Below are positions 1-19,849 of a stretch of 20,238 bases of DNA, one piece after another. The number at the start of each line of letters is the position of its first letter. Positions within the stretch are counted from its first letter, which is position 1. The position numbers and the translations under genes are program-made. The notes under the pieces were generated by a model that was given only the letters and a program-made list of their open reading frames with translations, did not search any database and was not told where the DNA came from. This DNA is from Candidatus Hydrogenedens sp. (GTDB lineage Bacteria > Hydrogenedentota > Hydrogenedentia > Hydrogenedentales > Hydrogenedentaceae), in the NCBI GenBank assembly GCA_049968235.1, contig JBMFRC010000034.1:1-20238 (forward strand), in the 5' to 3' direction.

Positions 1-899
<899 letters not shown>

Positions 900-1598: not shown

Positions 1599-3530
1599 CT
1601 AATCAAATTGAATATCACGCATGGCGGAATCTGCATCACCCGGATAAGTAAATATACGTATTGCTGTATAGCCTTTTCTGCGTGCAGAGAAAGGCACCTG
1701 TATCTTATGTTTCGTATAAGGTTCTACATTTCCTCTATCCGGTTCAACCCATGTTTTTTCAATCCTCTTTCTTGCAATCCAATTTTTGTTATTGAAGAAA
1801 AGGATAATAAAAGTATCGAATGAATCTAAATCTATTGTTAGGGATTTATCTTTTTTCATTTCATCAAGTTGAATCTCTATTCCATATTTCGGAACAATAA
1901 TTTTTGCAGATTCGTTTGATGCTATTCTTGCTTTTAATTCCCGATATGTTATCTTTTTGAGATTAGGAAATTGATAACGGTCTTTATCTATGAGGTAGTC
2001 ATACATACCTAAATTCATTTTGATGATGTCCCGCCAGCGTTCTATTGTAAATAAAGGACCGCGTGTGATAACTTTCAAATGGTCAAAAAATTGTGCTAAA
2101 TTTTTATCCTGGATTTTGTTTTCATCTCCCCCTGCGGAATCAATATAACCTTCGGGGATATATCGCCAGAAATGACCGATACGCCAACTTGGTCGGCAAA
2201 CAGCAGGCATTCGTGCTAATAAGGGGTCGGATAGTGCGTTATAATCAATAATATGAGCAACAGGACCTGCTAAGAAACCTCTATAGCCAACACTACCATG
2301 GGATTTGGTTATTCTTTTATTTGCCTGCCGATATTGTCTTCCTTGATTAGCAAAAGCATTACAAGGCATGGGTTTTCCTTTTTCCCAATGAGCCAGACTC
2401 GCCACTTGAAAATAGAACATTCGTTCATCACCTATACCATGTTCATCTTTAAATCCGGACAAATCTTTTCCAAAGGAGTTGTCCGTCAATATTGGGACAT
2501 TAGGCTGTATAAAACCTGTCATGAGAAATATACATATTGCGGGGATACCATGTTTCAATTGCTCCAATTTTGAATACCGAATAATAAGGATGGTAGCAAA
2601 GAGTAAAGGTACACTAAAAAATCTGCCTCCCATAAAATCGCCCCCTATCCAAATAATGTAAAGGCAATACAGAATAATACCTATCACACATGCCCAAATT
2701 TCTTTTTGCCTCTGATAAAATGGGATGAATAAACTTAAAAATAAAACCAGTAAGGTGATGAAATCTCTTTTCCACGAAAAAGCGTAATACCACAAGCCTT
2801 GCTTTATCAAATCCATTTTCCACAGTCCTGTACCTAATTTTGCGTAAGCAGTATTTGGAAATGGAAAGCCATAGTAAACAACTGAAAATACTTCCCACAA
2901 AGCCAGCGGGATAAAGCCTAAACAGAGTAGAATAAATCCTTGTTTCTTGTGTTCTGTCTGCCACCATGCATAAGCCAGTGGAGGGAAATAAAGTAAAATG
3001 CAATCCTGACGATTAAGAGTAGCCAGAGATGCTATCAGAGAGAGAAGAAATAAATTCTTCAAGGTAAATTTTTGTGGAAGGAATACAATCATAAATATCA
3101 CAAGTAATAAATGGCTCATAGGATTTTCCAGACCGGAAGAAGAAAAATCTACAAAAGCCCTTGAAAAACCTAGTATACTCCCTGCTATCAATACTTGCGA
3201 TAAGTTCTGTGCAATACCAAGATTTAAAGAAATTATTGTTAACATAGATATGGCAAATGAAATGAATATGGCAGTGAGAAACATTTCTCTTGTTATGGCA
3301 TAAAAAGGAATGTGCAGGAACATCCATAAAGGATGTGTATATGCCTGAACGCGTTCATTTACATTCCAGCGAAGTCCATAACCATTTACTGCATTATCCA
3401 CAGTACGAAATGATATATATGCATCATCGCATAACCATGCAGTACGAAGGAAAAGAATTGCAAAAAATATCCAGATACATAAAAGGGTAACACTTGTTAA
3501 AAACCACAATTTCTTTTTGCTATTTTCCAT
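1599..3530 (-). CDS. Polytopic membrane GT-C glycosyltransferase, AftB/Emb-like arabinofuranosyltransferase family (paralog 1, 643 aa)
   Basis: A 643-aa ORF. The N-terminal ~330 aa are highly hydrophobic (multiple TM helices) and the C-terminal ~300 aa are soluble. Motifs: WLCDDAYISFRTVDNAVNGYGLRWNVNERVQAYTHPLW (DD catalytic motif in the first loop), DFSSSGLENPMSH, YYGFPFPNTAYAKLG, WIGGDFMGGRFFSVPLL, IGDERMFY and RIGHFWRYIPEGY. From recollection these match mycobacterial AftB blocks (WIADDGLIVLRTVRN..GERVEA..TS.W; DFATSGLEN; YYGLLVPGTALAKD; GGDFMHGRVLLAPL; IVDERRFY; RIGHDKN). It is ~65% identical to the upstream paralog. Confidence 0.7.
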   Translation of the reverse strand: MENSKKKLWFLTSVTLLCIWIFFAILFLRTAWLCDDAYISFRTVDNAVNGYGLRWNVNERVQAYTHPLWMFLHIPFYAITREMFLTAIFISFAISMLTIISLNLGIAQNLSQVLIAGSILGFSRAFVDFSSSGLENPMSHLLLVIFMIVFLPQKFTLKNLFLLSLIASLATLNRQDCILLYFPPLAYAWWQTEHKKQGFILLCLGFIPLALWEVFSVVYYGFPFPNTAYAKLGTGLWKMDLIKQGLWYYAFSWKRDFITLLVLFLSLFIPFYQRQKEIWACVIGIILYCLYIIWIGGDFMGGRFFSVPLLFATILIIRYSKLEQLKHGIPAICIFLMTGFIQPNVPILTDNSFGKDLSGFKDEHGIGDERMFYFQVASLAHWEKGKPMPCNAFANQGRQYRQANKRITKSHGSVGYRGFLAGPVAHIIDYNALSDPLLARMPAVCRPSWRIGHFWRYIPEGYIDSAGGDENKIQDKNLAQFFDHLKVITRGPLFTIERWRDIIKMNLGMYDYLIDKDRYQFPNLKKITYRELKARIASNESAKIIVPKYGIEIQLDEMKKDKSLTIDLDSFDTFIILFFNNKNWIARKRIEKTWVEPDRGNVEPYTKHKIQVPFSARRKGYTAIRIFTYPGDADSAMRDIQFD

Positions 3531-3601: not shown

Positions 3602-5542
3602 TTATTTTGACAACAAGCGGAAATTTTTTATCTCGGAGTAAACATGTCTTTGATTGAGTTCCTTAGGGCAGACAAAAATACGAACTGTATCATATCCTTG
3701 CCTGATAACAAATTGTGGAAGTTTTATAGAATAAGTAGCAAATAACGACATATCGTCAGAAGTAGGACCTAATTTTATTCGTGTTAGGTATTCTTTATTG
3801 TTGAATAATAAAATATGGAATTGGTTCCATTTTCTTAATTCGAACTCCATATAGGGATTGTGTCTTACTTCTCCCAGTTGTATTTCTAATCCTCTTTCCT
3901 TAATTTTGAAACCTCGATTTTTTTCCAAATTTTGTAATTCTTCATCCCATTCTTTGTAATATTTTCTTTCTGTATCCGCAAATTGATATTTATCTTTATC
4001 TATTAGATGGTTGTAATATCCAAGATTCATTTTCAAAATCACTTCAAACCGTTCCCATGACCATATAGGACTACGGGTAATAATGCGGACATAATTATAG
4101 AATTGAGCGAGGTCAGGGTCTTCTATTTTATTTTCATTGCTACCCGCAGATTCCATATATCCTTCAGGGATATAGCGTATAAAATGACCTATAGCGATTT
4201 TGGGGTGATAAAGACTGGGCAAATGCGATAGTAATGGGTCTGCAAGGGCATGGAAATCAACAATATGAACAAGGGGACCTGAAAAAAAACCATAAAATCC
4301 GATACAACCGCGAAGTTTAGTTATTTGTATGTTTTTTCTTCTGTTTTCTCTTCCGTGCTCTGCCCAACTGAACGAGGGCATGGGTTTCCCTTTTTTCCAA
4401 TTTAATAGACTTGACCATTCATAATAATACTTGCGTTCTGTGGTAATCCCGTCCTTTGTAAAAAATCCTCCTTTACTATAATCTGCACCTGTAAAAATTG
4501 GAACATTAGGCTGTAATACACTTGAAAAGACGAAAAAAAACGCAATCGGGATGCCATATTTTATTTGGTTTACATTCAAATAACGAATAATCATGATTGT
4601 TGATAAGAGAAGAGGAACTGTGAAAAAACGACCACCCATAAAATCACCGCCTATCCATAAGATATATGCATAATAAAAGGTTAAACCCATCATCCAGATT
4701 ATTATTTCCTTTTGCCTTTGTAAAAAAGGAATGATGAATCCAATAAGAAGGACAAAACAAGTAATGCGGTCTTGATGATAAATCCATGTATAATATCGTA
4801 ATCCCTGAGAAATTAGGTCAAATCGAGATATTCCTGCTCCCAGTTTTGCGTAGGCTGTGTTGGGGAAAGGGTAACCATAATAAATAATCGAAAATACTTC
4901 CCAGAGAAATAAAGGCACAAAACCTGCACAGAGAAAAAGGAACCCTTTTGTCTTCTTTTCAGTATGCCACCATGCATAAATTAAAGCAGGTAGATAGATA
5001 AGAAGACAATCCTGACGGTTTAATGTAGCAAAACAGGATACGAGGGATAAAAGAAAAAGATTAGGTAATGTAAATTTTTTTAATAAAAATACAGAAAGAA
5101 AAAGCACTAATAGAAAATGACTCATCGGATTTTCTAAACCAGAAGAAGAAAAATCTATAAAGGCTCTTGAGAATCCTAATATACTGGCTACGATTAAAAC
5201 CTGTGCATTATTTTGAGCAATAAAAAGGGTAAGAAAAATAATAGTCAACATCGAAACAGTAAAAGAAATAAAGATAGGCGTCAGAAACATTTCTTTTGTA
5301 AGAAAATAAAAGGGTATATGTAAAAATAACCATAAGGGATGTGTGTATACCTGAACCCTTTCATTTATATTCCAGCGTAATCCATAGCCATTTACTGCAT
5401 TATCGACTGTACGGAAACTAATATATGCATCATCACAAAGCCATGCTGTCCGTAAAAACAGAATTGCAAAAAAGGTCCAGACACCCAGTAAAACAAGAAA
5501 ATTGTTTCTTCTATTTTTTAACATATCATCGAAATATGCCAC
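3602..5542 (-). CDS. Polytopic membrane GT-C glycosyltransferase, AftB/Emb-like arabinofuranosyltransferase family (paralog 2, 646 aa)
   Basis: A 646-aa ORF with the same architecture and the same motif set as paralog 1 (WLCDDAYISFRTVDNAVNGYGLRWNINERVQVYTHPLW; SSGLENPMSH; YYGYPFPNTAYAKLG; WIGGDFMGGRFFTVPLL; ITTERKYY; AIGHFIRYIPEGY). It is co-directional with paralog 1 with a 71-bp gap. DNA identity is only ~75-80% in the conserved blocks, so this is an old duplication and not an assembly artefact. Confidence 0.7.
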   Translation of the reverse strand: MAYFDDMLKNRRNNFLVLLGVWTFFAILFLRTAWLCDDAYISFRTVDNAVNGYGLRWNINERVQVYTHPLWLFLHIPFYFLTKEMFLTPIFISFTVSMLTIIFLTLFIAQNNAQVLIVASILGFSRAFIDFSSSGLENPMSHFLLVLFLSVFLLKKFTLPNLFLLSLVSCFATLNRQDCLLIYLPALIYAWWHTEKKTKGFLFLCAGFVPLFLWEVFSIIYYGYPFPNTAYAKLGAGISRFDLISQGLRYYTWIYHQDRITCFVLLIGFIIPFLQRQKEIIIWMMGLTFYYAYILWIGGDFMGGRFFTVPLLLSTIMIIRYLNVNQIKYGIPIAFFFVFSSVLQPNVPIFTGADYSKGGFFTKDGITTERKYYYEWSSLLNWKKGKPMPSFSWAEHGRENRRKNIQITKLRGCIGFYGFFSGPLVHIVDFHALADPLLSHLPSLYHPKIAIGHFIRYIPEGYMESAGSNENKIEDPDLAQFYNYVRIITRSPIWSWERFEVILKMNLGYYNHLIDKDKYQFADTERKYYKEWDEELQNLEKNRGFKIKERGLEIQLGEVRHNPYMEFELRKWNQFHILLFNNKEYLTRIKLGPTSDDMSLFATYSIKLPQFVIRQGYDTVRIFVCPKELNQRHVYSEIKNFRLLSK

Positions 5543-5690: not shown

Positions 5691-5714
5691 CTCGTGAAAG
5701 AAAGGAGCAAAGTA

Positions 5715-6302
5715 ATGGCTTTTTGTGAAGAACCGGAAATTCGTGAAGAGGAGAAACCAGCCCCGCAGGAAGGTCTATCTCTCCGATTGTTAAAAAATCG
5801 TGTAGTTATCGTATCTGGTGAAGTAACTCAGGAATTGGCGGAGAAAATCATAACACAATTATTGTTATTAGATTATGAATCTCAAGAACCCATTACTGTC
5901 TATGTATGTTCTCCTGGAGGACATGTCGATTCAGGTTTCGCCATTTATGACATAATGAAGTTTGTTCAGTCGCCAATAACGACAATTGGTGTAGGTTGGG
6001 TTGCCAGTATTGCTGTACCCATTCTAATGGGGGCTCCCAAAGAAAGACGGTTCGCATTACCCAACACACGATTTCTAATACATCAACCTTCAGGGGGAGC
6101 AGGAGGACAGGCGGCAGATATTCGAATAGAAGCACAGGAAATTTTAAAGATTCGTGAACGGATTAATCATCTTTTATCCGTGGAAACAGGACATCCCATA
6201 GAGAAAATAGCCAAAGATAGTGACCGCAATTTTTGGATGTCCGCAGAAGAGGCACTGGAATATGGTTTAATCGGAGAGATTATTGCTAAAAGAAAGATGT
6301 AA
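5715..6302 (+). CDS. clpP: ATP-dependent Clp protease proteolytic subunit (ClpP family, atypical N-terminus)
   Basis: Aligns to ClpP throughout the protease core. The catalytic Ser is in GWVASIA, the His in LIHQPSGG and the Asp in DSDRNFW. The ATG at 5715 is preferred because an AAAGGAG RBS sits 7 nt upstream; the ORF track starts at a GTG at 5694. The N-terminal ~25 aa (MAFCEEPEIREEEKPAPQEGL) are acidic and lack the canonical ClpP axial-loop motif. No clpX follows. Confidence 0.85.
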   Translation: MAFCEEPEIREEEKPAPQEGLSLRLLKNRVVIVSGEVTQELAEKIITQLLLLDYESQEPITVYVCSPGGHVDSGFAIYDIMKFVQSPITTIGVGWVASIAVPILMGAPKERRFALPNTRFLIHQPSGGAGGQAADIRIEAQEILKIRERINHLLSVETGHPIEKIAKDSDRNFWMSAEEALEYGLIGEIIAKRKM

Positions 6303-6314
6303 AAAAGGCAATAA

Positions 6315-7586
6315 ATGAATGAAAATGTATCTGAACAAATTACCCATCCCCCCAAAAAGTCCGTATTTAAGAAAATAATTTTTAGTATATTTTTAGTCAT
6401 TTCTGCAATCGTTATTAGTTTGATAATTTTCGTAGTGGGGGTTCTTATATTCTCTGTCTTATATTCTGAACCTATGCAAATGTATCCAGAACGAATAAAA
6501 GGAATACAAATTTCTTCACCCATACCTGTAGTCCCTGGGAAAGGAATGCCTGAAGATTTTTCTCCTATGCGTTCAACAAATAATGTTGACCTTATTCGCA
6601 TAGGTGCAAGTATATTTATGAGTTTACGCACAGCACCCAGTCATTTTGCATCAACCAATACAAAGTTGTATGTAATGCGTTCTGATGATGAAGGCAAATC
6701 ATGGAAGAAAGAACTATGTATAAGGATGGGACATGACCTCCGCGAACCTCGTTTCTTACATTTTAAGAACAGATTATTTTTATATTTCTACACAGGAGGT
6801 ACTGACCCTCTACGATTTGAACCGGGGTACATTCATTATAGTGAAAGACTGGAGGATAATTATTGGACAGAACCACAACAAATCTTTCAACCCGGTTATG
6901 TGGTCTGGCGTGTTCGCACCCTAGGAGAATATGCCTACATGTCGGTATATTATGGTTTAGATATATATGGGAAAGGAGACCGTGGCGATGTTCGTCTTTT
7001 AATTTCCTCCGATGGCGTTTTGTGGCAACCCATTTCTAATGAGCCACAAATTGACCGTGTTGGAGCAGAGGAGGCAGAATTTGTATTTGATGATAAAGGA
7101 GGAATTGTATCGCTGGTTCGTCTTGAAGTAGGAGGAGGTGCGTTAGTTTGTCGTGCCCCTGCGGATAAAATTGATTGCTGGGAGTGTAAATTTACACCTT
7201 ATAAAGTTGACTCCTCACTTATGTTTACCCACAAAGGGCGATTTTTTATTGTGGGTAGAAGAAACATAGCCGGACGTTCAGCAAGAACTGTAGGATTTTT
7301 ACCTGAAAGCGTCCAGAATGCATGGAGCATGGTATTTTATTCTATTACGCGAAAACGCACCTGCATATATGAAATAAATCCCAATACTCTGGAGTTATAC
7401 CCTCTTATTGATTTGCCATCTAAAGGAGATACCGCTTTTGCTGGAATTGTACCGTTTTCTGAGGAAAAATATTATCTGGTAAATTACAGCAGTCCCTTAG
7501 AAGGATTTGATTTGCCGTGGATTGGCGGACAATTATTAGAAAGCCGATTGTATGGGTTCATTCTCGATTTTTCTGATGTCAAATAA
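6315..7586 (+). CDS. Membrane-anchored BNR/Asp-box repeat protein (sialidase-like beta-propeller; possible glycoside hydrolase)
   Basis: 423 aa. There is an N-terminal hydrophobic anchor (IIFSIFLVISAIVISLIIFVVGVLIFSVL). Two clear Asp-box (S-x-D-x-G-x-x-W) motifs are present: RSDDEGKSW and SSDGVLW. The start is 12 bp after the clpP stop, which suggests co-transcription. Confidence 0.75.
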   Translation: MNENVSEQITHPPKKSVFKKIIFSIFLVISAIVISLIIFVVGVLIFSVLYSEPMQMYPERIKGIQISSPIPVVPGKGMPEDFSPMRSTNNVDLIRIGASIFMSLRTAPSHFASTNTKLYVMRSDDEGKSWKKELCIRMGHDLREPRFLHFKNRLFLYFYTGGTDPLRFEPGYIHYSERLEDNYWTEPQQIFQPGYVVWRVRTLGEYAYMSVYYGLDIYGKGDRGDVRLLISSDGVLWQPISNEPQIDRVGAEEAEFVFDDKGGIVSLVRLEVGGGALVCRAPADKIDCWECKFTPYKVDSSLMFTHKGRFFIVGRRNIAGRSARTVGFLPESVQNAWSMVFYSITRKRTCIYEINPNTLELYPLIDLPSKGDTAFAGIVPFSEEKYYLVNYSSPLEGFDLPWIGGQLLESRLYGFILDFSDVK

Positions 7587-12535: not shown

Positions 12536-15500
12536 ATGCCAAAAAGAAACGATATTAAGAAGATAATGATTATAGGTTCAGGCCCTATTATCATTGGACA
12601 AGCGTGTGAGTTTGATTATTCAGGAACACAGGCATGTAAAGCACTACGGGAAGAAGGGTATGAAGTCATTTTGGTAAATAGTAATCCTGCCACAATTATG
12701 ACAGACCCGGAAATGTCTGATTGCACTTACATTGAACCATTAACAGTTCCTTTTTTGGAAAAGATTATAGAGCATGAAAAGCCTGACGCACTTTTACCTA
12801 CAGTAGGTGGACAAACGGGACTTAATTTATCGGTTGCCCTGGCAGATGCTGGTATATTGGATAAACATGGTGTAAAGATGATAGGTGCAAATGCTCAAAC
12901 AATAAAAAAAGCGGAAGACCGTGGATTGTTTAAAGAGGCAATGATTCACTGTGGATTAGAAGTTCCACGTAGTCTGGTCATCCATCATCTTGACGAGGCA
13001 ATGGAGTTCGGCGCAGAGATTAACTACTCCGCAGTAATACGTCCTGCGTTCACATTAGGAGGAACAGGGGCTGGTCTATCTTTTAACAAAGATGAATATG
13101 TATCTGCTATTCAAAAGGGATTGGAAGCAAGCCCAATACATGAAGTTTTAGTAGAAGAGTCCGTTATCGGCTGGAAAGAATATGAATTAGAAGTAATGCG
13201 AGATTTGAAAGACAATGTAGTCATTGTGTGCCCTATCGAGAATGTGGACCCGATGGGCGTTCACACAGGGGATAGTGTTACAGTAGCACCCGCACAAACC
13301 CTGACAGACAAAGAATACCAAATTATGCGGAATGCGGCAATTGCTATTATGCGTGAGATAGGAGTGGATACGGGTGGGTCCAATGTGCAGTTTGCCGTTC
13401 ACCCACAAACAGGACGAATGGTGGTAATTGAGATGAACCCGCGTGTCTCACGCAGTTCCGCACTCGCTTCTAAAGCGACCGGATTTCCCATAGCGAAAAT
13501 TGCTGCAAAATTAGCTGTGGGTTATACCCTGGACGAAATACCCAATGATATTACGAAAGAAACTCCCGCATGCTTTGAACCTACCATTGACTATGTTGTA
13601 ACAAAAATACCGCGTTGGGCTTTTGAAAAGTTTTCCGGTGCAGAACCCATATTAACCGTTCAGATGAAAAGCGTCGGCGAAACAATGAGTATTGGACGGA
13701 CATTCAAAGAATCGCTACAAAAAGCCATACGTGGATTAGAAATTGGAAGGTTTGGCTTCGGCGGAGATGGTAAAGCAAAACATCTCACAAAAGAACCCTA
13801 TTCACAAGCAGAAAAAGACGCTCTTTTGCGGGCTCTACGGACACCTTCACCCCATCGGTATCTTCATTTGGCAGAAGCTATTCGACTTGGAGCCACCGTT
13901 GAAGAATTGCATAAAATAACAAAAATCGACCCGTGGTTCATCCGTCAAATGGAAGAAATTGTAGAAGAGGAAAAAAATCTCATTGAGTTTTCAGCCGAAA
14001 TAACAAACTATATAAATAGCGGGCAAAATGAAGAAAAGAAAAAAGACTTTCTGGCAAAGAGAATTAAAAAAGCCAAACAATATGGCTTTTCAGACTATCA
14101 ATTAGCAAGATATTGGAACTTAAACGAACTTGATGTAAGAAATTTACGTAAGCAATTAGGAATTATTACAACTTATCGTCTTGTAGATACATGCGCAGGC
14201 GAGTTTGAAGCATATACTCCCTACTACTACTCGACTTATGAAGATGAGGATGAAGTGCGACTCTCAGATAAACCACGAATAATCATACTAGGAGGTGGTC
14301 CCAACCGAATTGGGCAGGGAATTGAGTTCGATTACTGCTGTGTACATGCAGTTTTTGCTCTTAGAAATGCGGGGTATGAAACTATTATGGTAAATTGCAA
14401 TCCCGAAACAGTTTCAACAGACTATGATACTTCTGACCGTTTATTTTTTGAGCCAGTTACTTTTGAAGATGTAATGAACATTATTGAAAGAATTCAACCT
14501 CAAGGAGTTATCGTCCAATTTGGCGGTCAGACCCCTCTAAATATAGCCCAGCAATTAGAAAAAGCAGGAGCTCCAATTATTGGCACTTCACCTTGGAATA
14601 TTGCCCGTGCAGAAGACCGCAAACTCTTCCGTGAAGTAGTCGCAAAATTAAATCTATTACAACCGGAAAATGATACAGCCCGCTCATTTGAAGAAGCACT
14701 ACAAATTGCAGAAAGAATTAGTTACCCCGTAGTGGTAAGACCATCTTTCGTTTTGGGGGGGCGTGCTATGGAGATTGTCTATGATTCAAATGCACTCCAA
14801 AGATACATGGAATATGCCGTTGAAGCATCTCCGGAACATCCGATATTAATCGATAAATTTTTAGAGGATGCTATTGAAATTGACGTGGACGCTATTGCTG
14901 ATGGAGAACAGGTAATAATCGGTGGTATAATGCAACATATCGAAGAGGCAGGGGTTCACTCAGGGGATAGTGCTTGTATTTTGCCCCCTTATGACTTACC
15001 TAAAGATATTATAGAAGTTATTAAGCAACAAACCCGTGACTTAGCAAGAGAATTAGAAGTGCGGGGACTTATGAATGTTCAGTATGCTGTAAAGGACGGA
15101 AAAGTATATTTATTAGAGGTAAACCCTCGTGCATCAAGGACGATACCTTTTGTGAGTAAGGCAATAGGTATTCCTCTAGCTAAACTTGCCACTCTCGTTA
15201 TGGTTGGTAAAAAACTCAGCGATATGGGTCTTAATAAAGACCCTGAACCACCCTATATTTCCGCAAAAGAAGTCGTTCTACCTTTCATAAAATTCCCCGG
15301 AGTAGATATTATTCTGGGACCTGAAATGCGTAGCACAGGAGAAGTAATGGGTATTGATAAAAACATGGGACTTGCCTATGCAAAAAGTCAGATAGCCGCA
15401 GGAAATAGTATTCCGTTGGAAGGGACGATTTTTATCAGTCTGAATGACCACGACAAAAAACATATAGGTTCTGTAGCCAGAGATTTATATGAATTGGGAT

Positions 15501-15841
15501 TTAAGTTTATTGCTACCAAAGGAACCGCATCCGTTCTCCGCAGTCAAGGTATTGATGTAGCGGAAGTATTCAAAGTTGGAGAAGGCAGACCCAATGTGTT
15601 AGATTGCATTATTAATGGCTATATAAACTGGATTATTAACACACCCAAAGGAAAATCTTCCAAAGATGATGAAGTGCTTATCCGCAGAAAGGCGTTAGAA
15701 AAAAATATCCCGACAATGACCACACTCGCAGCGGTCAAAGCGGCCGTTCAGGCACTCCGCGAAATGAAAAAGGGCTCCATGGACATCCTCTCCCTCCAAA
15801 AATATCATTCCACTACAAATATAAAACTCAAAATTAAGTAA
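12536..15841 (+). CDS. carB: Carbamoyl-phosphate synthase large subunit
   Basis: 1101 aa with duplicated ATP-grasp halves ([19 protein letters not shown] and [19 protein letters not shown]) and an MGS-like C-terminal domain. The start is 17 bp after greA, with an AAGGGA RBS. No carA lies in the window. Confidence 0.95.
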
Positions 15842-15857
15842 ATATAAATTTCAAATA

Positions 15858-16016
15858 TCACTTCGATGATGCCTTTTTGAGAATCTGGGAAACTTCTTGA
15901 AGAATTTTTTGGAGGATTTGCTTCCGATGTTCTTCGGATATTTTGTAATGCTGTTCTTGTTCTAATAGTTCCATTGTTCTCACTGCTACCTGATACGCAA
16001 AATCTTCTACTTTCAT
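15858..16016 (-). CDS. Small hypothetical protein, 52 aa, predicted helical and charged (MKVEDFAYQVAVRTMELLEQEQHYKISEEHRKQILQKILQEVSQILKKASSK)
   Basis: Found by hand translation. An AGGAG RBS (rc of 16026-16030) lies 9 nt upstream of the ATG at 16016. The composition is protein-like and amphipathic. The stop is 16 bp from the carB stop, in convergent orientation. An alternative ATG at 16020 in another frame gives the low-complexity 71-aa ORF in the track (15805-16020) and cannot be excluded. Confidence 0.35.
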   Translation of the reverse strand: MKVEDFAYQVAVRTMELLEQEQHYKISEEHRKQILQKILQEVSQILKKASSK

Positions 16017-16056
16017 ACATCCCTACTCCTTAGAAAAATAAATTTACTTACATGAA

Positions 16057-16085
16057 TATATAAGTATGTTATTTTTAACTAACAA
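16057..16085 (-). promoter_or_regulatory. Putative sigma70-type promoter for the small ORF (TTGTTA, 17-nt spacer, TATATA)
   Basis: On the minus strand, TTGTTA is the rc of plus 16080-16085 and TATATA is the rc of plus 16057-16062. This places a transcription start ~35 nt upstream of the small-ORF ATG. Confidence 0.3.
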
Positions 16086-16178
16086 GTAAAACAACCCTAT
16101 AGTATTTTTCATTTTCCGGTTGAATTTCAATTTAACTTTTAATATGTTTCTCCATTAATGAATTTTCTTTGTTAAAAC

Positions 16179-16222
16179 TTGACATGCCCCTCAAAAAAAA
16201 TGATTATCATCTGTTTTTTTTT
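16179..16222 (+). promoter_or_regulatory. Orphan promoter-like element (TTGACA, 17-nt spacer, GATTAT) with an overlapping palindrome ATGATtATCAT flanked by A8 and T9 runs
   Basis: TTGACA at 16179-16184. A8 at 16193-16200. The palindrome ATGATTATCAT at 16200-16210. T9 at 16214-16222. No ORF with a start codon follows within the next 230 bp before the antisense metK 3' end. Confidence 0.3.
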
Positions 16223-16437
16223 ATCACCTATACGAAGATGATTTTGTTATAGAGTTAAGAGAGGAGTTATAAGATAGATTTTATTCAAGGAGAGAAACAC
16301 TACAGGAACAAATTTTCCTACAATAAAATTAACTTCTTATCAGGTTCTTTCATTGGTATAGATTCAATATTGTCATTTATAGTAGCAATTAATCTTTTCC
16401 GTTGTGATAAATATCCGTTATTAATTTATTAAACTTT

Positions 16438-17640
16438 TTATATACCGACTTTTTCGCGGATGAGATTTGCAGAGTCGGTATCTTCCCAGCGGAATCCCTG
16501 GTCTTCACGACCAAAGTGTCCATAACTGGCAGTTTTTCTGTATTGTGGTTTGCGAAGGTTTAGAAATTCGATAATTGCGGAAGGTCTGCAATCGAATGTG
16601 TCCGTTAAAATTTTTGCTAATTTCGTATCATCAATTTTGCCCGTGCCATATGTGGTTACATTAATAGAAACGGGCTTTGCTACACCGATAGCATAAGCCA
16701 GTTGCACTTCACAACGGTCTGCAATGCCTGCGGATACTACATTTTTGGCAATATAACGCGACATATATGCAGCACTACGGTCAACCTTAGTGGGGTCTTT
16801 ACCGCTAAAAGCACCACCACCATGTCTGCCCATCCCCCCGTAAGTATCAACAATAATTTTTCTTCCGGTCAAACCACAATCTCCCACGGGACCACCTGTA
16901 ACAAATCTGCCCGTCGGATTTACATAATATTTTATATCTCCTTTGACCAACTCCCGGGGCAGGGTAGGTTTAATTACCTGTTCAATGATGGCTTCTTCAA
17001 TTTCATCATGTTCTTTCTTAAGTTCTTGTGGAGTAGGATTGAGACCGCCATAAAGGGGTAGGTGTTGATTTGAAATCACAACGGTATCAATTCGAACAGG
17101 TTTTCCATTAACATACTCTACTGTTACCTGTGATTTTCCATCAGGCATGAGCCAGGGGATAGTCTTATTTTTTCGCAATTCGCGAAGTTTTAATCCTAAT
17201 TTATGGGCTAATGAAATAGGAAGAGGCATAAGTTCTGGGGTTTCACGGACAGCAAATCCGAACATCATTCCCTGGTCACCAGCACCCTGTTCGTGGTCAG
17301 AGGATGCATCTACACCACGGGCAATATCAACGGATTGTTTTTCTAATGCGACAAGAATGGAGCAGGTTTCCCCATTAAAACCTGTATAGCCCGGTCCGTA
17401 GCCAATATCCACAATAGCCTGACGCACCAGCGAGGTAATATCTACTCTGGCATGTGTGGTTATTTCTCCAGCAACCACACAAAGGTTCGTTTTTACTAAA
17501 GTTTCACATGCAACTCGGCTGTACGGGTCTTGTTCTAACATAGCATCAAGAACAGTATCTGAAATAATATCTGCTACTTTATCCGGATGTCCATCGGTTA
17601 CAGATTCGGACGTAAATAAAATTCCGTTTTCTTTAATCAT
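16438..17640 (-). CDS. metK: S-adenosylmethionine synthetase
   Basis: 400 aa, beginning [24 protein letters not shown]. MetK signature blocks are present throughout ([19 protein letters not shown]). There is an AAAAAGG RBS. Confidence 0.95.
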
Positions 17641-17685
17641 AATATTAACCTTTTTCCGTTGAATTCCTATTCTTGTATAACTACA

Positions 17686-18405
17686 TTATGCTACGCCCGG
17701 ACGGTATTTTGCTGTAAGTGCTGCAGGGTCTAATTTCAAACCCGGTCCCATAGTAGAACAAATACTACATGCTTTTAAGTAGGTTCCTTTTAACGAACTG
17801 GGACGTGCTTTTACAATGGCAGAAATTATTGTTGCAGCATTTTCCTCTATTTGTTCCGGGGTAAAACTGGCTTTACCTATGGGAACATGAATATTTGCAT
17901 TTTTATCTACACGAAATTCAATTTTACCTTTCATTATTTCTGCAACTGCCGGACCGATATTGGGAGTAACAGTACCTGCTTTGGGGCTGGGCATAAGTCC
18001 GCGAGGACCTAAAATTTTCCCCAATTTTCCGACCTGCCCCATCATATCCGGAGAGGCTACTGCCGCATCAAAATCTAACCAACCGCTTTGAACCTTCTCG
18101 ACCAAATCTTCCGCACCGGCTTCAATTGCACCGGCTTCTTTCGCCGCTTTGATTTGTTCTTCTTGTTTGCAAAAAGCAATCACGCGCACTTTTTTACCCG
18201 TTCCGTGTGGAAGTGAAACTGCACCGCGTACCATTTGTTCCGCATGTCTTGGGTCAACGCCCAGAAGAAAGGCTAATTCAATGGTCTCATCAAACTTAGC
18301 AGTGGCACACTCTTTAACGATTTTTGATGCTTCGGAAAGGGAATAATAACGGGAACTATCTACTTTTTTATAAAGTTCCCTCATTCTCTTACTCGGTTTT
18401 GACAT
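17686..18405 (-). CDS. rplA: 50S ribosomal protein L1
   Basis: L1 homology from MSKPSKRMRELYKKVD onward. The ATG at 18405 is preferred because a GGAGG RBS sits 8 nt upstream. The ORF track extends to 18453 with a non-homologous 16-aa leader. Confidence 0.9.
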   Translation of the reverse strand: MSKPSKRMRELYKKVDSSRYYSLSEASKIVKECATAKFDETIELAFLLGVDPRHAEQMVRGAVSLPHGTGKKVRVIAFCKQEEQIKAAKEAGAIEAGAEDLVEKVQSGWLDFDAAVASPDMMGQVGKLGKILGPRGLMPSPKAGTVTPNIGPAVAEIMKGKIEFRVDKNANIHVPIGKASFTPEQIEENAATIISAIVKARPSSLKGTYLKACSICSTMGPGLKLDPAALTAKYRPGVA

Positions 18406-18473
18406 ATCTTCATCCTCCTGTGGTTCTGTCGGACAGATAAACTGTCCTCCCACGGTTAAAAAATTTTTATAAA

Positions 18474-18899
18474 TTATTCAACAATAATACCCATACTACG
18501 AGCAGTCCCTCGAATCATGCTTTTTGCTGTTTCAAGGGAACCTGCATTTAAATCGGGCATCTTTAATTTTGCAATTTCTTCGACTTGTGCTTCACTCACC
18601 GTACCTACTTTGTTACGATTGGGTTCACCTGAGCCTTTGGCTAACTTTGCCGCTTTCTTTAATAAAACTGCGGCAGGTGGAGTTTTGGTTATGAAGGAGA
18701 ACGAACGGTCCTCAAAAATAGAGATAACGACAGGAATTATCATCCCTTGTTGGTCTTTGGTTCTGTCGTTAAATTGGCGGACAAAGTCCATAATATTGAC
18801 CCCATGTTGACCTAATGCCGGTCCTACGGGAGGAGCAGGTGTGGCTTGTCCTGCTGGAACCTGTAATTTTACGAGTGCTTTTAATTTTTTAGGAGGCAT
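18474..18899 (-). CDS. rplK: 50S ribosomal protein L11
   Basis: 141 aa: [44 protein letters not shown] is canonical L11. Confidence 0.95.
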
Positions 18900-18927
18900 A
18901 TCTTTAACCTTTCTTTCTTAATTTCCA

Positions 18928-19578
18928 TCAAAACGCTTCAACTTGCCAGGATTCCACTTCAATAGTTGTAGTTCGATTAAAAATTTCTACAGATATCTTT
19001 AATGTTGAACGCTCGACATTTATTTCCTCAATTCGTCCTACAAAGTTTGAGAATGGTCCTTCAATAATTTTTACTCTATCACCAATAGAAAATTCTAATT
19101 TAGGCTTCGGGGCTTCTTCTTCACCTGTCATAATAGCAATAATCCCCTCTACCTCCTCATCCGGAATTGGTGTGGGGATATTCCTTCTACTACTAACAAA
19201 ACCTGTAATTCCTTGTGTCTCCCGGATTAATGCCCATAATTCAGGATAATTTTCTGGATGTTCCGGCAATTGAACAAGGATATAGCCCGGAAAACATTTA
19301 TGTTCAACAACTTTAGAAGTTCCGCCTCGCCGTTCGGTAACTCTCTCCTTCGGAACTAATGCATTAACAACCCAATCTTCAATACCTCTTTGCCTGGCTC
19401 CCCATATTAGCTTCTCACACACTTCATATTCCTTCGCAGTAAGGACATGAAGGGCATACCACCGGCGCGGAATACCATCTTGAGGAACTGGCTTTAAAAG
19501 TTTATCACGGGTAGGAATAGTATCCGCACTTGCCATTTCCTCTTTACTTGCTATTATTTCCTTTTTTTCTTCTACCAT
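18928..19578 (-). CDS. nusG: Transcription termination/antitermination factor NusG (with a ~35-aa N-terminal extension)
   Basis: An NGN domain (RRWYALHVLTAKEYEV) and a C-terminal KOW (KLEFSIGDRVKIIEGPFSNFVGRIEEI). The start is placed at the ATG at 19576-19578 (MVEEKK), which has an AAAGGAG RBS. The track's longer ORF would overlap secE. Confidence 0.85.
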   Translation of the reverse strand: MVEEKKEIIASKEEMASADTIPTRDKLLKPVPQDGIPRRWYALHVLTAKEYEVCEKLIWGARQRGIEDWVVNALVPKERVTERRGGTSKVVEHKCFPGYILVQLPEHPENYPELWALIRETQGITGFVSSRRNIPTPIPDEEVEGIIAIMTGEEEAPKPKLEFSIGDRVKIIEGPFSNFVGRIEEINVERSTLKISVEIFNRTTTIEVESWQVEAF

Positions 19579-19600
19579 CGCCGATGGACTCCTTTTAACT

Positions 19601-19849
19601 TTATGAAGCAATACCCAGAATGAACAGTATAATTTGTGCAAAAGAAACATCAAAAGCAAAGATAACTACTGCCATGATACATAACAGAATCATGGTAATC
19701 TTCGTTGAAACTTTCAAGTCATCCATTGTAGGCCAGGTAACTTTTTCCAATTCTGTTTTTACATCCAACAGAAAGTTTTTTGCCTTAATGTAGATGGCTT
19801 TTAATCCTTTTTCCTGTTGTTCTTCTGCTTTACTTACTATTTTTGACAT
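19601..19849 (-). CDS. secE: Preprotein translocase subunit SecE
   Basis: 82 aa. FLLDVKTELEKVTWPTMDDLKVSTKITMILLCIMAVVIFAFDV matches the SecE C-terminal TM segment. Its position between tRNA-Trp and nusG is conserved. Confidence 0.85.
   Translation of the reverse strand: MSKIVSKAEEQQEKGLKAIYIKAKNFLLDVKTELEKVTWPTMDDLKVSTKITMILLCIMAVVIFAFDVSFAQIILFILGIAS

What the first reader, a model, noticed from the sequence alone, without database searches (positions are those of the whole stretch)
15858..16016. Unannotated 52-aa helical small protein convergent with carB, with its own promoter and RBS
Hand translation of the minus strand gives MKVEDFAYQVAVRTMELLEQEQHYKISEEHRKQILQKILQEVSQILKKASSK. It is preceded by an AGGAG RBS at 9-nt spacing and by a TTGTTA-17-TATATA promoter. 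The residues are charged and amphipathic with heptad-like spacing of I/L, which suggests a coiled-coil or helical-hairpin small protein. The ORF track shows only a low-complexity 71-aa alternative frame, so this frame would be missed by standard callers.
Basis: seen in the sequence. Interest (0 to 1): 0.5.

Follow-up and report, generated by a model that had tools for sequence, protein, structure and literature searches.

The report
Conserved 52-aa helical-hairpin protein gene
The 52-codon reading frame is a real gene, already deposited as a hypothetical protein, for a small two-helix protein that is conserved across the candidate phylum Hydrogenedentota about as strongly as housekeeping enzymes; its function is unknown.

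Summary
The ORF at 15858..16016 (-) exists exactly as described, and so does its AGGAG ribosome-binding site 9 nt upstream. It is a genuine protein-coding gene. All 77 related loci examined (68 distinct CDS) keep an intact ATG-MKV... frame of 49-58 codons. Variation concentrates at third codon positions (entropy 0.77/0.43/1.48). dN/dS is about 0.3. Nucleotide conservation starts at the RBS and stops at the stop codon. The competing 71-aa frame is broken in 52 of 68 relatives.

AlphaFold2 gives a confident helical hairpin (pLDDT 91; helices 3-22 and 28-51).

The "unannotated, missed by standard callers" claim is wrong. GenBank already lists the protein as a hypothetical protein (MGC8739710.1, locus tag ACP5UA_13850, Candidatus Hydrogenedens sp.).

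The proposed promoter matches consensus at only 8 of 12 positions, which is chance level in this AT-rich spacer. Close relatives do keep a -10 box about 45 nt upstream.

The family has three subfamilies and no Pfam, NCBIfam, PDB, PHROG or PADLOC match.

The gene usually sits after rplK-rplA(-metK), and in some genomes before uvrA or argH. A sister subfamily is tightly paired with an uncharacterised 165-aa protein with an N-terminal four-cysteine (zinc-ribbon-like) motif.

The function is unknown. The most likely form is a dimeric four-helix-bundle binding protein. Interest is modest.

The parts
15858..16016 (-). CDS of the 52-aa helical-hairpin protein (stop codon included)
   Evidence: ORF list. 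Exact protein in NCBI as a hypothetical protein. The frame is intact in all 77 related loci, 68 distinct CDS. Codon-position entropy is 0.77/0.43/1.48, and 0 of 68 have stops in this frame. AF2 pLDDT 91.
16026..16031 (-). Shine-Dalgarno sequence AAGGAG, 9 nt before the ATG
   Evidence: Sequence. An SD-like 4-mer lies at -20..-4 in 71 of 73 homologous loci, against 8 of 73 in a control window. It is also present in subfamily C loci.
16055..16062 (-). Candidate -10 element (TATATA 16062..16057, overlapping TATATT 16060..16055)
   Evidence: Sequence. TATATT scores 5/6 at -44. Close low-GC relatives have -10-like boxes (TATAAT in three, plus TATCAT and CATAAT) at -39 to -55. Across all loci, -10-like hexamers peak at -60..-41. 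It is not significant on its own.
16080..16085 (-). Candidate -35 element TTGTTA (17 nt from TATATA, 19 nt from TATATT)
   Evidence: Sequence. It matches at 4/6, which is chance level in this AT-rich spacer. It was not reported by the consensus scan.
16017..16437 (-). 421-nt AT-rich spacer between metK and the small gene (context; not conserved)
   Evidence: blastn found no match to any related locus except over the last ~15-35 nt that include the RBS. No Rfam match at E<=1.
16438..17640 (-). metK, the upstream same-strand neighbour (context)
   Evidence: Pfam S-AdoMet_synt N/M/C domains. metK lies directly upstream of the small gene in 30 of 68 loci.
12536..15841 (+). carB, the convergent neighbour (context)
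   Evidence: ORF and CPSase domains in homologous loci. It is convergent in only 6 of 68 loci.

Best explanation
Shown. 15858..16016 (-) is a genuine protein-coding gene, already deposited as a hypothetical protein. It encodes a 6.2-kDa soluble protein with a near-neutral pI. The protein folds as an antiparallel helical hairpin: helix 1 spans residues 3-22, a conserved H-Y-K-I-S/P turn follows, and helix 2 spans residues 28-51. It is translated from a conserved Shine-Dalgarno site. It belongs to an uncharacterised family with at least three subfamilies, found in Hydrogenedentota, in a clade of MAGs labelled Abyssobacteria, Lindowbacteria or Hydrogenedentota, and in MAGs labelled Planctomycetota. 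The family is under purifying selection almost as strong as that on MetK and ribosomal protein L1 in the same genomes.

Inferred. In this genome the gene is transcribed from its own promoter in the non-conserved 421-nt spacer after metK, with a -10 box about 40 nt upstream of the ATG. In relatives with gaps of 6-36 nt it is probably co-transcribed with metK.

Inferred mechanism. Each helix carries two hydrophobic stripes, which is more hydrophobic surface than one hairpin can bury. The protein therefore most likely pairs into a homodimeric four-helix bundle. It would then act by binding a partner macromolecule through the nearly invariant helix-1/turn surface (F6, Y8, Q9, R13, E16, E19, H23, Y24, K25), rather than as an enzyme, membrane peptide or leader peptide. 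The partner is not identified.
For: The ORF and translation are exact. The identical protein is in NCBI.

Conservation. 23 close and about 130 wider homologues were found, and 38 clusters at 50% identity. 62 species-representative genomes were hit, nearly all labelled Hydrogenedentota, and every relative examined has an intact ATG-MKV frame.

Selection. Entropy by codon position is 0.77/0.43/1.48. pS is 0.79 against pN 0.24. Median dN/dS is 0.29. No stops occur in this frame in 68 sequences, whereas the other five frames are broken in 23-68 of 68. Window against L016 shows 17 nucleotide differences, 15 of them at third positions, giving 14 synonymous and 2 nonsynonymous codon changes. Nucleotide similarity starts at the RBS/ATG and ends at the stop codon. 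An SD-like motif is present in 71 of 73 loci, against 8 of 73 in a control window. Mean identity over the same 30 genome pairs is 67% for the small protein, 73% for MetK and 75% for L1.

Structure. AF2 gives pLDDT 91.2 and pTM 0.66, with helices at 3-22 and 28-51. GRAVY is -0.69 and pI is 8.05; the family median pI is 7.0. A natural tandem duplication (P0034, 130 aa) is predicted as four helices, which is consistent with two hairpins packing together.

Gene order. The gene is an independent unit whose downstream neighbours vary. It follows metK in 30 of 68 loci and lies downstream of rplA in 34 of 68 (directly after it in 7). It precedes argH in 13, GHL10 in 8 and uvrA in 8.
Against: No expression data exist. 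No sequence or fold relative of known function was found.

The dimer is inferred only. The tandem-fusion model is a single-sequence prediction of moderate confidence (pLDDT 71), and its fold search gave no significant four-helix-bundle match (best E 0.26, TM<0.52).

The window's promoter match is at chance level. In some relatives a hairpin followed by a T-run lies only about 20 nt before the RBS, which would argue for read-through rather than an own promoter in those genomes.
Confidence: 0.8

Rival explanations
1. It is a lineage-specific component or accessory factor of the translation or transcription machinery. It is encoded at the tail of the secE-nusG-rplK-rplA cluster and acts by binding the ribosome or RNA polymerase.
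For: It lies downstream of rplA on the same strand in 34 of 68 loci, and directly after rplA (about 140 nt) in 7 loci that lack metK at that position. Its conservation is comparable to L1 and MetK. It keeps a strong, conserved SD. Many subfamily A members have Lys-rich C-terminal tails.
Against: Its pI is near neutral (8.05; family median 7.0; range 4.6-9.4), unlike small ribosomal proteins. Subfamily C has acidic tails. In about half of the loci, and in subfamilies B and C, the gene is nowhere near ribosomal genes. There is no match to any ribosomal or RNAP family.
Confidence: 0.1
2. It is a regulator or adaptor tied to SAM metabolism or macromolecular repair. It would bind MetK, the SAM-dependent repair methyltransferase Pcm, or UvrA.
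For: metK is the immediate upstream gene in 30 of 68 loci, with gaps as short as 6-36 nt. uvrA is the immediate downstream gene in 8 Hydrogenedentota loci. The order small-pcm-uvrA holds in all three subfamily B genomes. L057 and L074 have metK-small-uvrA.
Against: The three subfamily B genomes are one clade, with UvrA at least 82% identical. Adjacency within a phylum may be inherited gene order only. Many loci have none of these neighbours. Subfamily C shows no metK, pcm or uvrA adjacency apart from two distant uvrA hits about 3.7 kb away.
Confidence: 0.07
3. It is a nucleic-acid-binding four-helix-bundle dimer in the manner of Rop, acting on RNA or DNA rather than on a protein.
For: It matches Rop in size and hairpin architecture. 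Lys-rich tails occur in many subfamily A members. A re-engineered single-chain ROP appears among the weak fold matches of the tandem form (1yo7, E 1.4).
Against: That match is not significant. The net charge is neutral, and one subfamily has acidic tails. There is no sequence similarity to Rop or to any nucleic-acid-binding family.
Confidence: 0.08
4. It is not a gene. It is a chance ORF in conserved non-coding DNA, or the overlapping 71-aa frame (15805..16020 -) is the real gene, or it is a leader peptide whose sequence does not matter.
For: The ORF is short. The 71-aa ORF shares the region and has an ATG 5 nt after the same AGGAG. argH or uvrA follow closely downstream in some relatives.
Against: No stops occur in this frame in 68 sequences, while the 71-aa frame is broken in 52 of 68. 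Third-position variation and dN/dS of about 0.3 point to coding selection. The 71-aa protein is absent from 15 billion predicted proteins. Amino-acid conservation extends across three subfamilies down to about 25-40% identity. There is no Rfam hit. The protein has no runs of regulatory codons, and its downstream genes differ between genomes.
Confidence: 0.01

Closest known systems
Rop/ROM (ColE1 repressor of primer), 63-aa helical-hairpin homodimer forming a four-helix bundle (comparison from general knowledge)
   Same: A single helix-turn-helix hairpin of about 50-60 residues with heptad-like hydrophobic stripes. Dimerisation into a four-helix bundle is the most economical way to bury its hydrophobic surface. 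This is an inference, weakly echoed by the natural tandem fusion P0034.
   Different: There is no detectable sequence similarity. The only structural echo is a non-significant hit of the tandem model to a re-engineered single-chain ROP (E 1.4). This gene is chromosomal, phylum-wide and sits next to housekeeping genes, whereas Rop is a plasmid copy-number factor. RNA binding was not tested.
Small helical-hairpin protein-binding regulators of Firmicutes such as Sda (46 aa) and the Spo0E family (comparison from general knowledge, not tested)
   Same: Size, soluble helical-hairpin fold, stand-alone gene with its own RBS, and a likely mode of action by binding a larger protein.
   Different: There is no sequence relationship. 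The Spo0E SQELD motif is absent. The taxonomic range and gene neighbourhood differ. The PDB sequence and fold searches returned no Sda or Spo0E entries.
Pfam DUF2605 (PF10792), an uncharacterised family with a 96-position profile
   Same: It is the best, sub-threshold, Pfam match: 17.4 bits, E 0.0046, residues 3-45. It was also hit weakly by 4 of 39 family members.
   Different: The score is below the curated cut-off of 25 bits. Only about half of the 96-position profile is covered. 35 of 39 members do not hit it at all.
Ribbon-helix-helix (CopG/Arc/MetJ) small DNA-binding proteins
   Same: About 45-55 residues with two helices separated by a short turn bearing Ser/Pro, encoded by a stand-alone small gene.
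   Different: An RHH protein needs an N-terminal beta-strand. Here residues 3-22 are one continuous helix with pLDDT of about 89-95. No RHH Pfam family is hit even at E<=10. The G-x-S/T turn is replaced by H-Y-K-I-S/P.

Membership tests
Unnamed 'MKxEDFAY...LLE...HYK' small-protein family (Hydrogenedentota and relatives; not in Pfam or NCBIfam) | 47-60 aa, N-terminal M-K-[VIL]-x-[DEN]-[FL], an L-L-E motif, and an [HY]-[HN]-Y-[KR] turn followed by S/P-[ED] | tested here: met
   The window protein is 100% identical to P0001 and 25-98% identical to 38 aligned members. L18 is invariant, and K2 and Y24 are conserved in at least 90%. The profile search finds it at E 5e-22.
Unnamed 'MKxEDFAY...LLE...HYK' small-protein family | Two-helix hairpin fold | tested here: met
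   AF2 with a 39-sequence alignment gives pLDDT 91.2, with helices at 3-22 and 28-51.
Unnamed 'MKxEDFAY...LLE...HYK' small-protein family | Purifying selection on this reading frame | tested here: met
   Entropy by codon position is 0.77/0.43/1.48. dN/dS is about 0.29. No stops occur in this frame in 68 sequences. Against L016 there are 14 synonymous and 2 nonsynonymous codon changes.
Rop-like four-helix-bundle dimers | Homodimerisation of two hairpins into an antiparallel four-helix bundle | not testable with these tools
   Only single-chain prediction was available. The natural tandem fusion P0034 is predicted as four helices at pLDDT 71, with no significant bundle match.
Rop-like four-helix-bundle dimers | Sequence or fold similarity to Rop | tested here: not met
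   There is no PDB sequence match. Rop is absent from the hairpin fold hits. A re-engineered single-chain ROP scores E 1.4.
Bacterial ribosomal proteins / ribosome-associated small proteins | Match to a ribosomal family profile or solved ribosome chain | tested here: not met
   There is no Pfam or NCBIfam hit. The only PDB hits are archaeal L7Ae at E 0.7-1 over 18 residues.
Bacterial ribosomal proteins / ribosome-associated small proteins | Strongly basic composition | tested here: not met
   pI is 8.05. The family median is 7.0 and the range is 4.6-9.4.
Bacterial ribosomal proteins / ribosome-associated small proteins | Encoded within ribosomal-protein gene clusters | tested here: inconclusive
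   It lies downstream of rplK-rplA(-metK) in 34 of 68 subfamily A loci, but not in the other loci or in subfamilies B and C.
Ribbon-helix-helix (CopG/Arc/MetJ) | N-terminal beta-strand preceding two helices, and a match to RHH profiles | tested here: not met
   The N-terminus is helical from residue 3. No RHH family is hit at E<=10.
Pfam DUF2605 (PF10792) | Score at or above the gathering threshold (25 bits) | tested here: not met
   The score is 17.4 bits. Only 4 of 39 members give any hit.
Type I toxins / small membrane peptides | A hydrophobic transmembrane helix | tested here: not met
Leader peptides / regulatory uORFs | Conservation of regulatory codon runs and a fixed downstream operon, rather than of the peptide sequence | tested here: not met
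   The peptide sequence is itself conserved, and the downstream genes vary: carB, GHL10, argH, uvrA, pcm and others.
Phage or defence-system proteins | Match to PHROGs or PADLOC models | tested here: not met
   The best PHROG E-value is 0.058, and PADLOC gives no hit.

The most novel reading that the evidence does not exclude
The family could be an unrecognised core small subunit or regulator in Hydrogenedentota and neighbouring candidate lineages. It is as conserved as MetK and L1 and is anchored to the end of the L11-L1(-metK) cluster. It might bind a central machine such as the ribosome or its L1/L11 region, SAM synthetase, or UvrA. In the Planctomycetota-labelled sister subfamily it forms a conserved two-gene module with a 165-aa protein carrying an N-terminal four-cysteine (zinc-ribbon-like) motif. 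That protein would then be its direct partner and would point to a new two-component system.
Probability: 0.15. Interest if true: 0.6.

Novelty: new member of a known kind. Interest (0 to 1): 0.3.

Why it matters
Small proteins under 60 aa are often suspected to be artefacts. Here the comparative evidence is unusually clean, so the gene can be trusted and the alternative frame discarded.

The family is not in Pfam or NCBIfam. It is nevertheless conserved across an entire uncultivated phylum almost as strongly as MetK and ribosomal protein L1. That makes it a reasonable candidate for a new family definition, and for interaction screening if Hydrogenedentota physiology is of interest.

The result is not a surprise in kind. 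The gene is already called in GenBank, helical-hairpin small proteins are common, and no function can yet be assigned.

Tried and rejected
1. Curated family libraries. Pfam, NCBIfam, PHROGs and PADLOC scans of the protein, plus a Pfam scan of all 39 aligned members, gave nothing above threshold.

2. PDB profile search gave only chance-level hits.

4. Tandem-fusion homologue P0034, used as a proxy for the dimer. The model has moderate confidence and no significant fold match.

5. Rfam, at gathering threshold on the whole window and at E<=1 on 15780..16480, found no RNA family at the locus.

6. A search for a conserved non-coding element in the 421-nt metK-small spacer found none.

7. RHH, leader-peptide, type I toxin, di-iron ExxH and phospho-His ideas were rejected on structure, composition, or lack of conservation of H23 and H30.

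8. A literature search for Hydrogenedentes plus 'small protein' returned nothing relevant.

10. I looked for the 165-aa partner of subfamily C near subfamily A and B genes and found none within about 4-6 kb. Its homologues are all unnamed proteins from Planctomycetota-labelled MAGs.

11. The search for related loci with the broad alignment failed because no stretch was conserved enough.

Full report
**Observation**

The window is a contig of a Candidatus Hydrogenedens sp. MAG (phylum Hydrogenedentota). AGGAG lies at 16030..16026 (-), followed by 9 nt and the ATG at 16016. The hexamers TTGTTA (16085..16080) and TATATA (16062..16057) are 17 nt apart.

carB (12536..15841 +) is convergent with the small gene, and the two stop codons are 16 nt apart. 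metK (16438..17640 -) lies 421 nt upstream on the same strand. It is preceded by rplA, rplK, nusG and tRNA-Trp. A 71-aa ORF in another frame (15805..16020 -) overlaps the small gene.

**Is it annotated?**

Yes. The exact 52-aa sequence is in NCBI as MGC8739710.1 / MGC8845976.1, 'MAG: hypothetical protein ACP5UA_13850 [Candidatus Hydrogenedens sp.]'. Its longest carrying contig is 20238 bases, which is the window length. Homologues were called independently in NCBI, JGI, ENA/MGnify and Logan data. The 71-aa alternative product is absent from the 15-billion-protein collection. The claim that the gene is unannotated and would be missed by standard callers is therefore wrong.

**Is it coding?**

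A single-sequence search found 23 homologues at 70-100% identity. A profile search of 1.84 billion cluster representatives found 38 clusters at E<=1e-3. A profile search of the 5.8-billion-cluster set found 130 proteins.

A scan of one genome per GTDB species returned 62 loci, nearly all labelled Hydrogenedentota. In all 77 loci then held, the frame is intact, starts with ATG-AAA/AAG-GTN (M-K-V), and runs for 49-58 codons.

Over the 68 distinct CDS:
- Column entropy by codon position is 0.77/0.43/1.48.
- Mean pS is 0.79 against pN 0.24.
- Median dN/dS is 0.29, from 246 unsaturated pairs.
- None of the 68 has a stop in this frame, whereas the other five frames are interrupted in 23-68 of 68. 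The 71-aa frame is broken in 52 of 68.

Against its closest species-level relative (L016), the window differs at 17 nucleotides. Fifteen of these are at third positions, giving 14 synonymous and 2 nonsynonymous codon changes.

Nucleotide similarity to relatives begins at the RBS/ATG and ends at the stop codon. The 421-nt spacer matches nothing. No Rfam family matches the locus.

The gene is real and under purifying selection. Over the same 30 genome pairs, mean identity is 67% for the small protein, 73% for MetK and 75% for L1.

**Translation and transcription signals**

An SD-like 4-mer lies at -20..-4 in 71 of 73 loci, against 8 of 73 in a control window. Subfamily C loci show the same pattern.

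The consensus scan did not list it. In that scan the region held 5 promoter-like sites, against 4.7 +/- 1.9 in shuffles. Shuffled 100-nt stretches of this spacer reach 8/12 or better 77% of the time. By itself it is therefore not evidence.

Comparative data give moderate support for an own promoter. The low-GC relatives carry -10-like boxes at -39 to -55: TATAAT in L016, L008 and L018, TATCAT in L015 and CATAAT in L025. L016 has TTGATT-17-TATAAT, a 10/12 match. Across all loci, -10-like hexamers peak at -60..-41. The window has TATATT at -44.

Transcription probably differs between genomes. In relatives where the gap after metK is only 6-36 nt, co-transcription is more likely. In L070, L072 and L073 a hairpin plus T-run lies about 20 nt before the RBS. 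This was not followed up.

**Structure and family**

AF2 with a 39-sequence alignment gives pLDDT 91.2 and pTM 0.66, with helices at 3-22 and 28-51 joined by the conserved H-Y-K-I-S/P turn. The protein is soluble (GRAVY -0.69) and near neutral (pI 8.05; family median 7.0).

The family consensus is MKxEDFAYxVAxxTxELLExxxHYKIxExxRKxI. L18 is invariant, and K2 and Y24 are conserved in at least 90% of members.

Three subfamilies are visible:
- **A:** Hydrogenedentota, MKV[EQH]DFAYQVA..., often with a Lys-rich tail.
- **B:** 48 aa, [MV]KLENF[CS]Y...DSLIES. Its three named genomes are labelled Abyssobacteria, Lindowbacteria and Hydrogenedentota.
- **C:** MKIEEL..R.AGEAL.LLEK[RK]YHYRI..., with an acidic tail, from MAGs labelled Planctomycetota.

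No Pfam, NCBIfam, PHROG, PADLOC or PDB sequence match reaches significance. The fold searches return only generic hairpins.

Each helix shows two hydrophobic stripes: V3/A7/V10/T14/L17 with Y8/A11/M15/L18 on helix 1, and I34/I38/V42/I45 with L35/L39/L46 on helix 2. An isolated two-helix hairpin cannot bury that much surface, so a dimeric four-helix bundle is the most likely form. This is an inference. A natural tandem duplication (P0034) is predicted as four helices, but at only moderate confidence and without a significant fold match.

**Genomic context**

In subfamily A, counting over 68 distinct loci:
- The gene follows metK on the same strand in 30.
- It lies downstream of rplA in 34. In 7 of these it follows rplA directly, at about 140 nt.
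- It precedes argH in 13, a GHL10 glycoside-hydrolase-like gene in 8, and uvrA in 8.
- It is convergent with carB in only 6, all close relatives of the window.
- Other loci have unrelated neighbours.

In subfamily B the order small-pcm-uvrA holds in all three genomes read. Their UvrA proteins are at least 82% identical, so they count as one lineage.

In subfamily C, 57 of about 70 metagenome loci place the small gene 16-213 nt downstream of a 165-aa protein with an N-terminal four-cysteine (zinc-ribbon-like) motif. That partner is itself conserved only to 35-100% identity, so the pairing is old. The partner has no Pfam, NCBIfam or PDB match. Its homologues are all unnamed and, where labelled, come from Planctomycetota MAGs. 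It is not found within about 4-6 kb of any subfamily A or B gene.

**Interpretation**

Shown: this is a genuine, already-deposited gene for a strongly constrained, soluble helical-hairpin protein of an uncharacterised family.

Inferred:
- It has its own promoter in this genome.
- It forms a homodimeric four-helix bundle.
- It acts by binding a partner through the near-invariant helix-1/turn surface.

The partner is unknown. The candidates suggested by gene order are the translation apparatus, MetK/Pcm/UvrA, or, in subfamily C, the zinc-ribbon-like protein. None could be tested here. Each gene-order link may be inherited synteny rather than a functional tie.

The following readings are rejected on the evidence above:
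- Chance ORF.
- The alternative 71-aa frame.
- Leader peptide.
- Membrane toxin.
- RHH protein.
- Phage or defence protein.

**Verdict**

The sequence observation is correct, and the coding and helical-hairpin interpretation is supported. The novelty claim of an unannotated gene is not supported, and the specific promoter is not distinguishable from chance. The result is a solid but ordinary conserved hypothetical small protein. The family-level picture is modestly interesting: phylum-wide conservation, absence from curated family databases, and a conserved partner gene in a sister subfamily.

Noticed in passing
L079:4480-4977 (+) and the equivalent position in L081-L141: In subfamily C of the small-protein family (MAGs labelled Planctomycetota), 57 of about 70 loci have an uncharacterised 165-aa protein with an N-terminal CxxC...CxxC motif immediately upstream on the same strand (16-213 nt). 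The pair is kept while the 165-aa protein diverges to 35% identity. It has no Pfam, NCBIfam or PDB match.
   Followed up: partly
L077, L078, L080 (5001-8980); L028, L029, L030, L038, L041, L052, L057, L074: uvrA lies directly downstream of the small gene in 8 Hydrogenedentota loci. It lies downstream via pcm (protein-L-isoaspartate methyltransferase) in the three subfamily B genomes. L057 and L074 have metK-small-uvrA. This could be ancestral gene order or a functional link to SAM metabolism or repair.
   Followed up: partly
window 16438-19659 (-): The nusG-rplK-rplA cluster is followed by metK (45-nt gap) and not by rplJ-rplL-rpoBC. The rplA-metK arrangement recurs in about 30 of 68 Hydrogenedentota loci.
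   Followed up: partly
window 1599-3530 (-) and 3602-5542 (-): Two tandem paralogues of 643 and 646 aa are 56% identical. They have hydrophobic N-terminal regions that look membrane-spanning, and no Pfam match even at E 0.01.
   Followed up: partly
window 6315-7586 (+): A 423-aa ORF directly after clpP (5694-6302) has no Pfam match at E 0.01. It is therefore not a recognisable ClpX, despite having the position and size expected of one.
   Followed up: partly
P0034 (130 aa, metagenomic homologue): This is a natural tandem duplication of the hairpin unit in one polypeptide. It is predicted as four helices at pLDDT 71.
   Followed up: partly
L070, L072, L073 at about -75..-20 before the ATG; L022 and L002 at about -100..-50: A GC-rich hairpin followed by a T-run (terminator-like) lies only about 20-50 nt upstream of the small gene's RBS, after metK. 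This suggests read-through transcription or an attenuator in those genomes.
   Followed up: no
L031, L035, L040, L042, L051, L053, L064, upstream 110 nt: Where the small gene follows rplA directly, a conserved hairpin (acggg...cccgt) is followed by TTT..TTTAT[CG]ATA. This looks like a terminator merged with a -10-like box.
   Followed up: no
window 15909-15938 (+): Two overlapping terminator-like hairpins on the + strand lie inside the small ORF, antisense to it. They may end carB transcripts, which would imply convergent transcript overlap. The scan found 2, against 0.6 +/- 0.8 in shuffles.
   Followed up: no
L045 (DATKVG010000158.1), and L020, L021, L025, L039, L046 and others: Contigs carrying the Hydrogenedentota-type small gene, some also with the rplA-metK context, are labelled 'Candidatus Bathyarchaeia archaeon' or 'uncultured Nitrospirales/Nitrospiraceae' in their records. 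These are probably mis-binned or mislabelled MAGs.
   Followed up: no
window 1-896 (-): A partial 16S rRNA gene (5' 880 positions of the model) runs off the window's left end.
   Followed up: no
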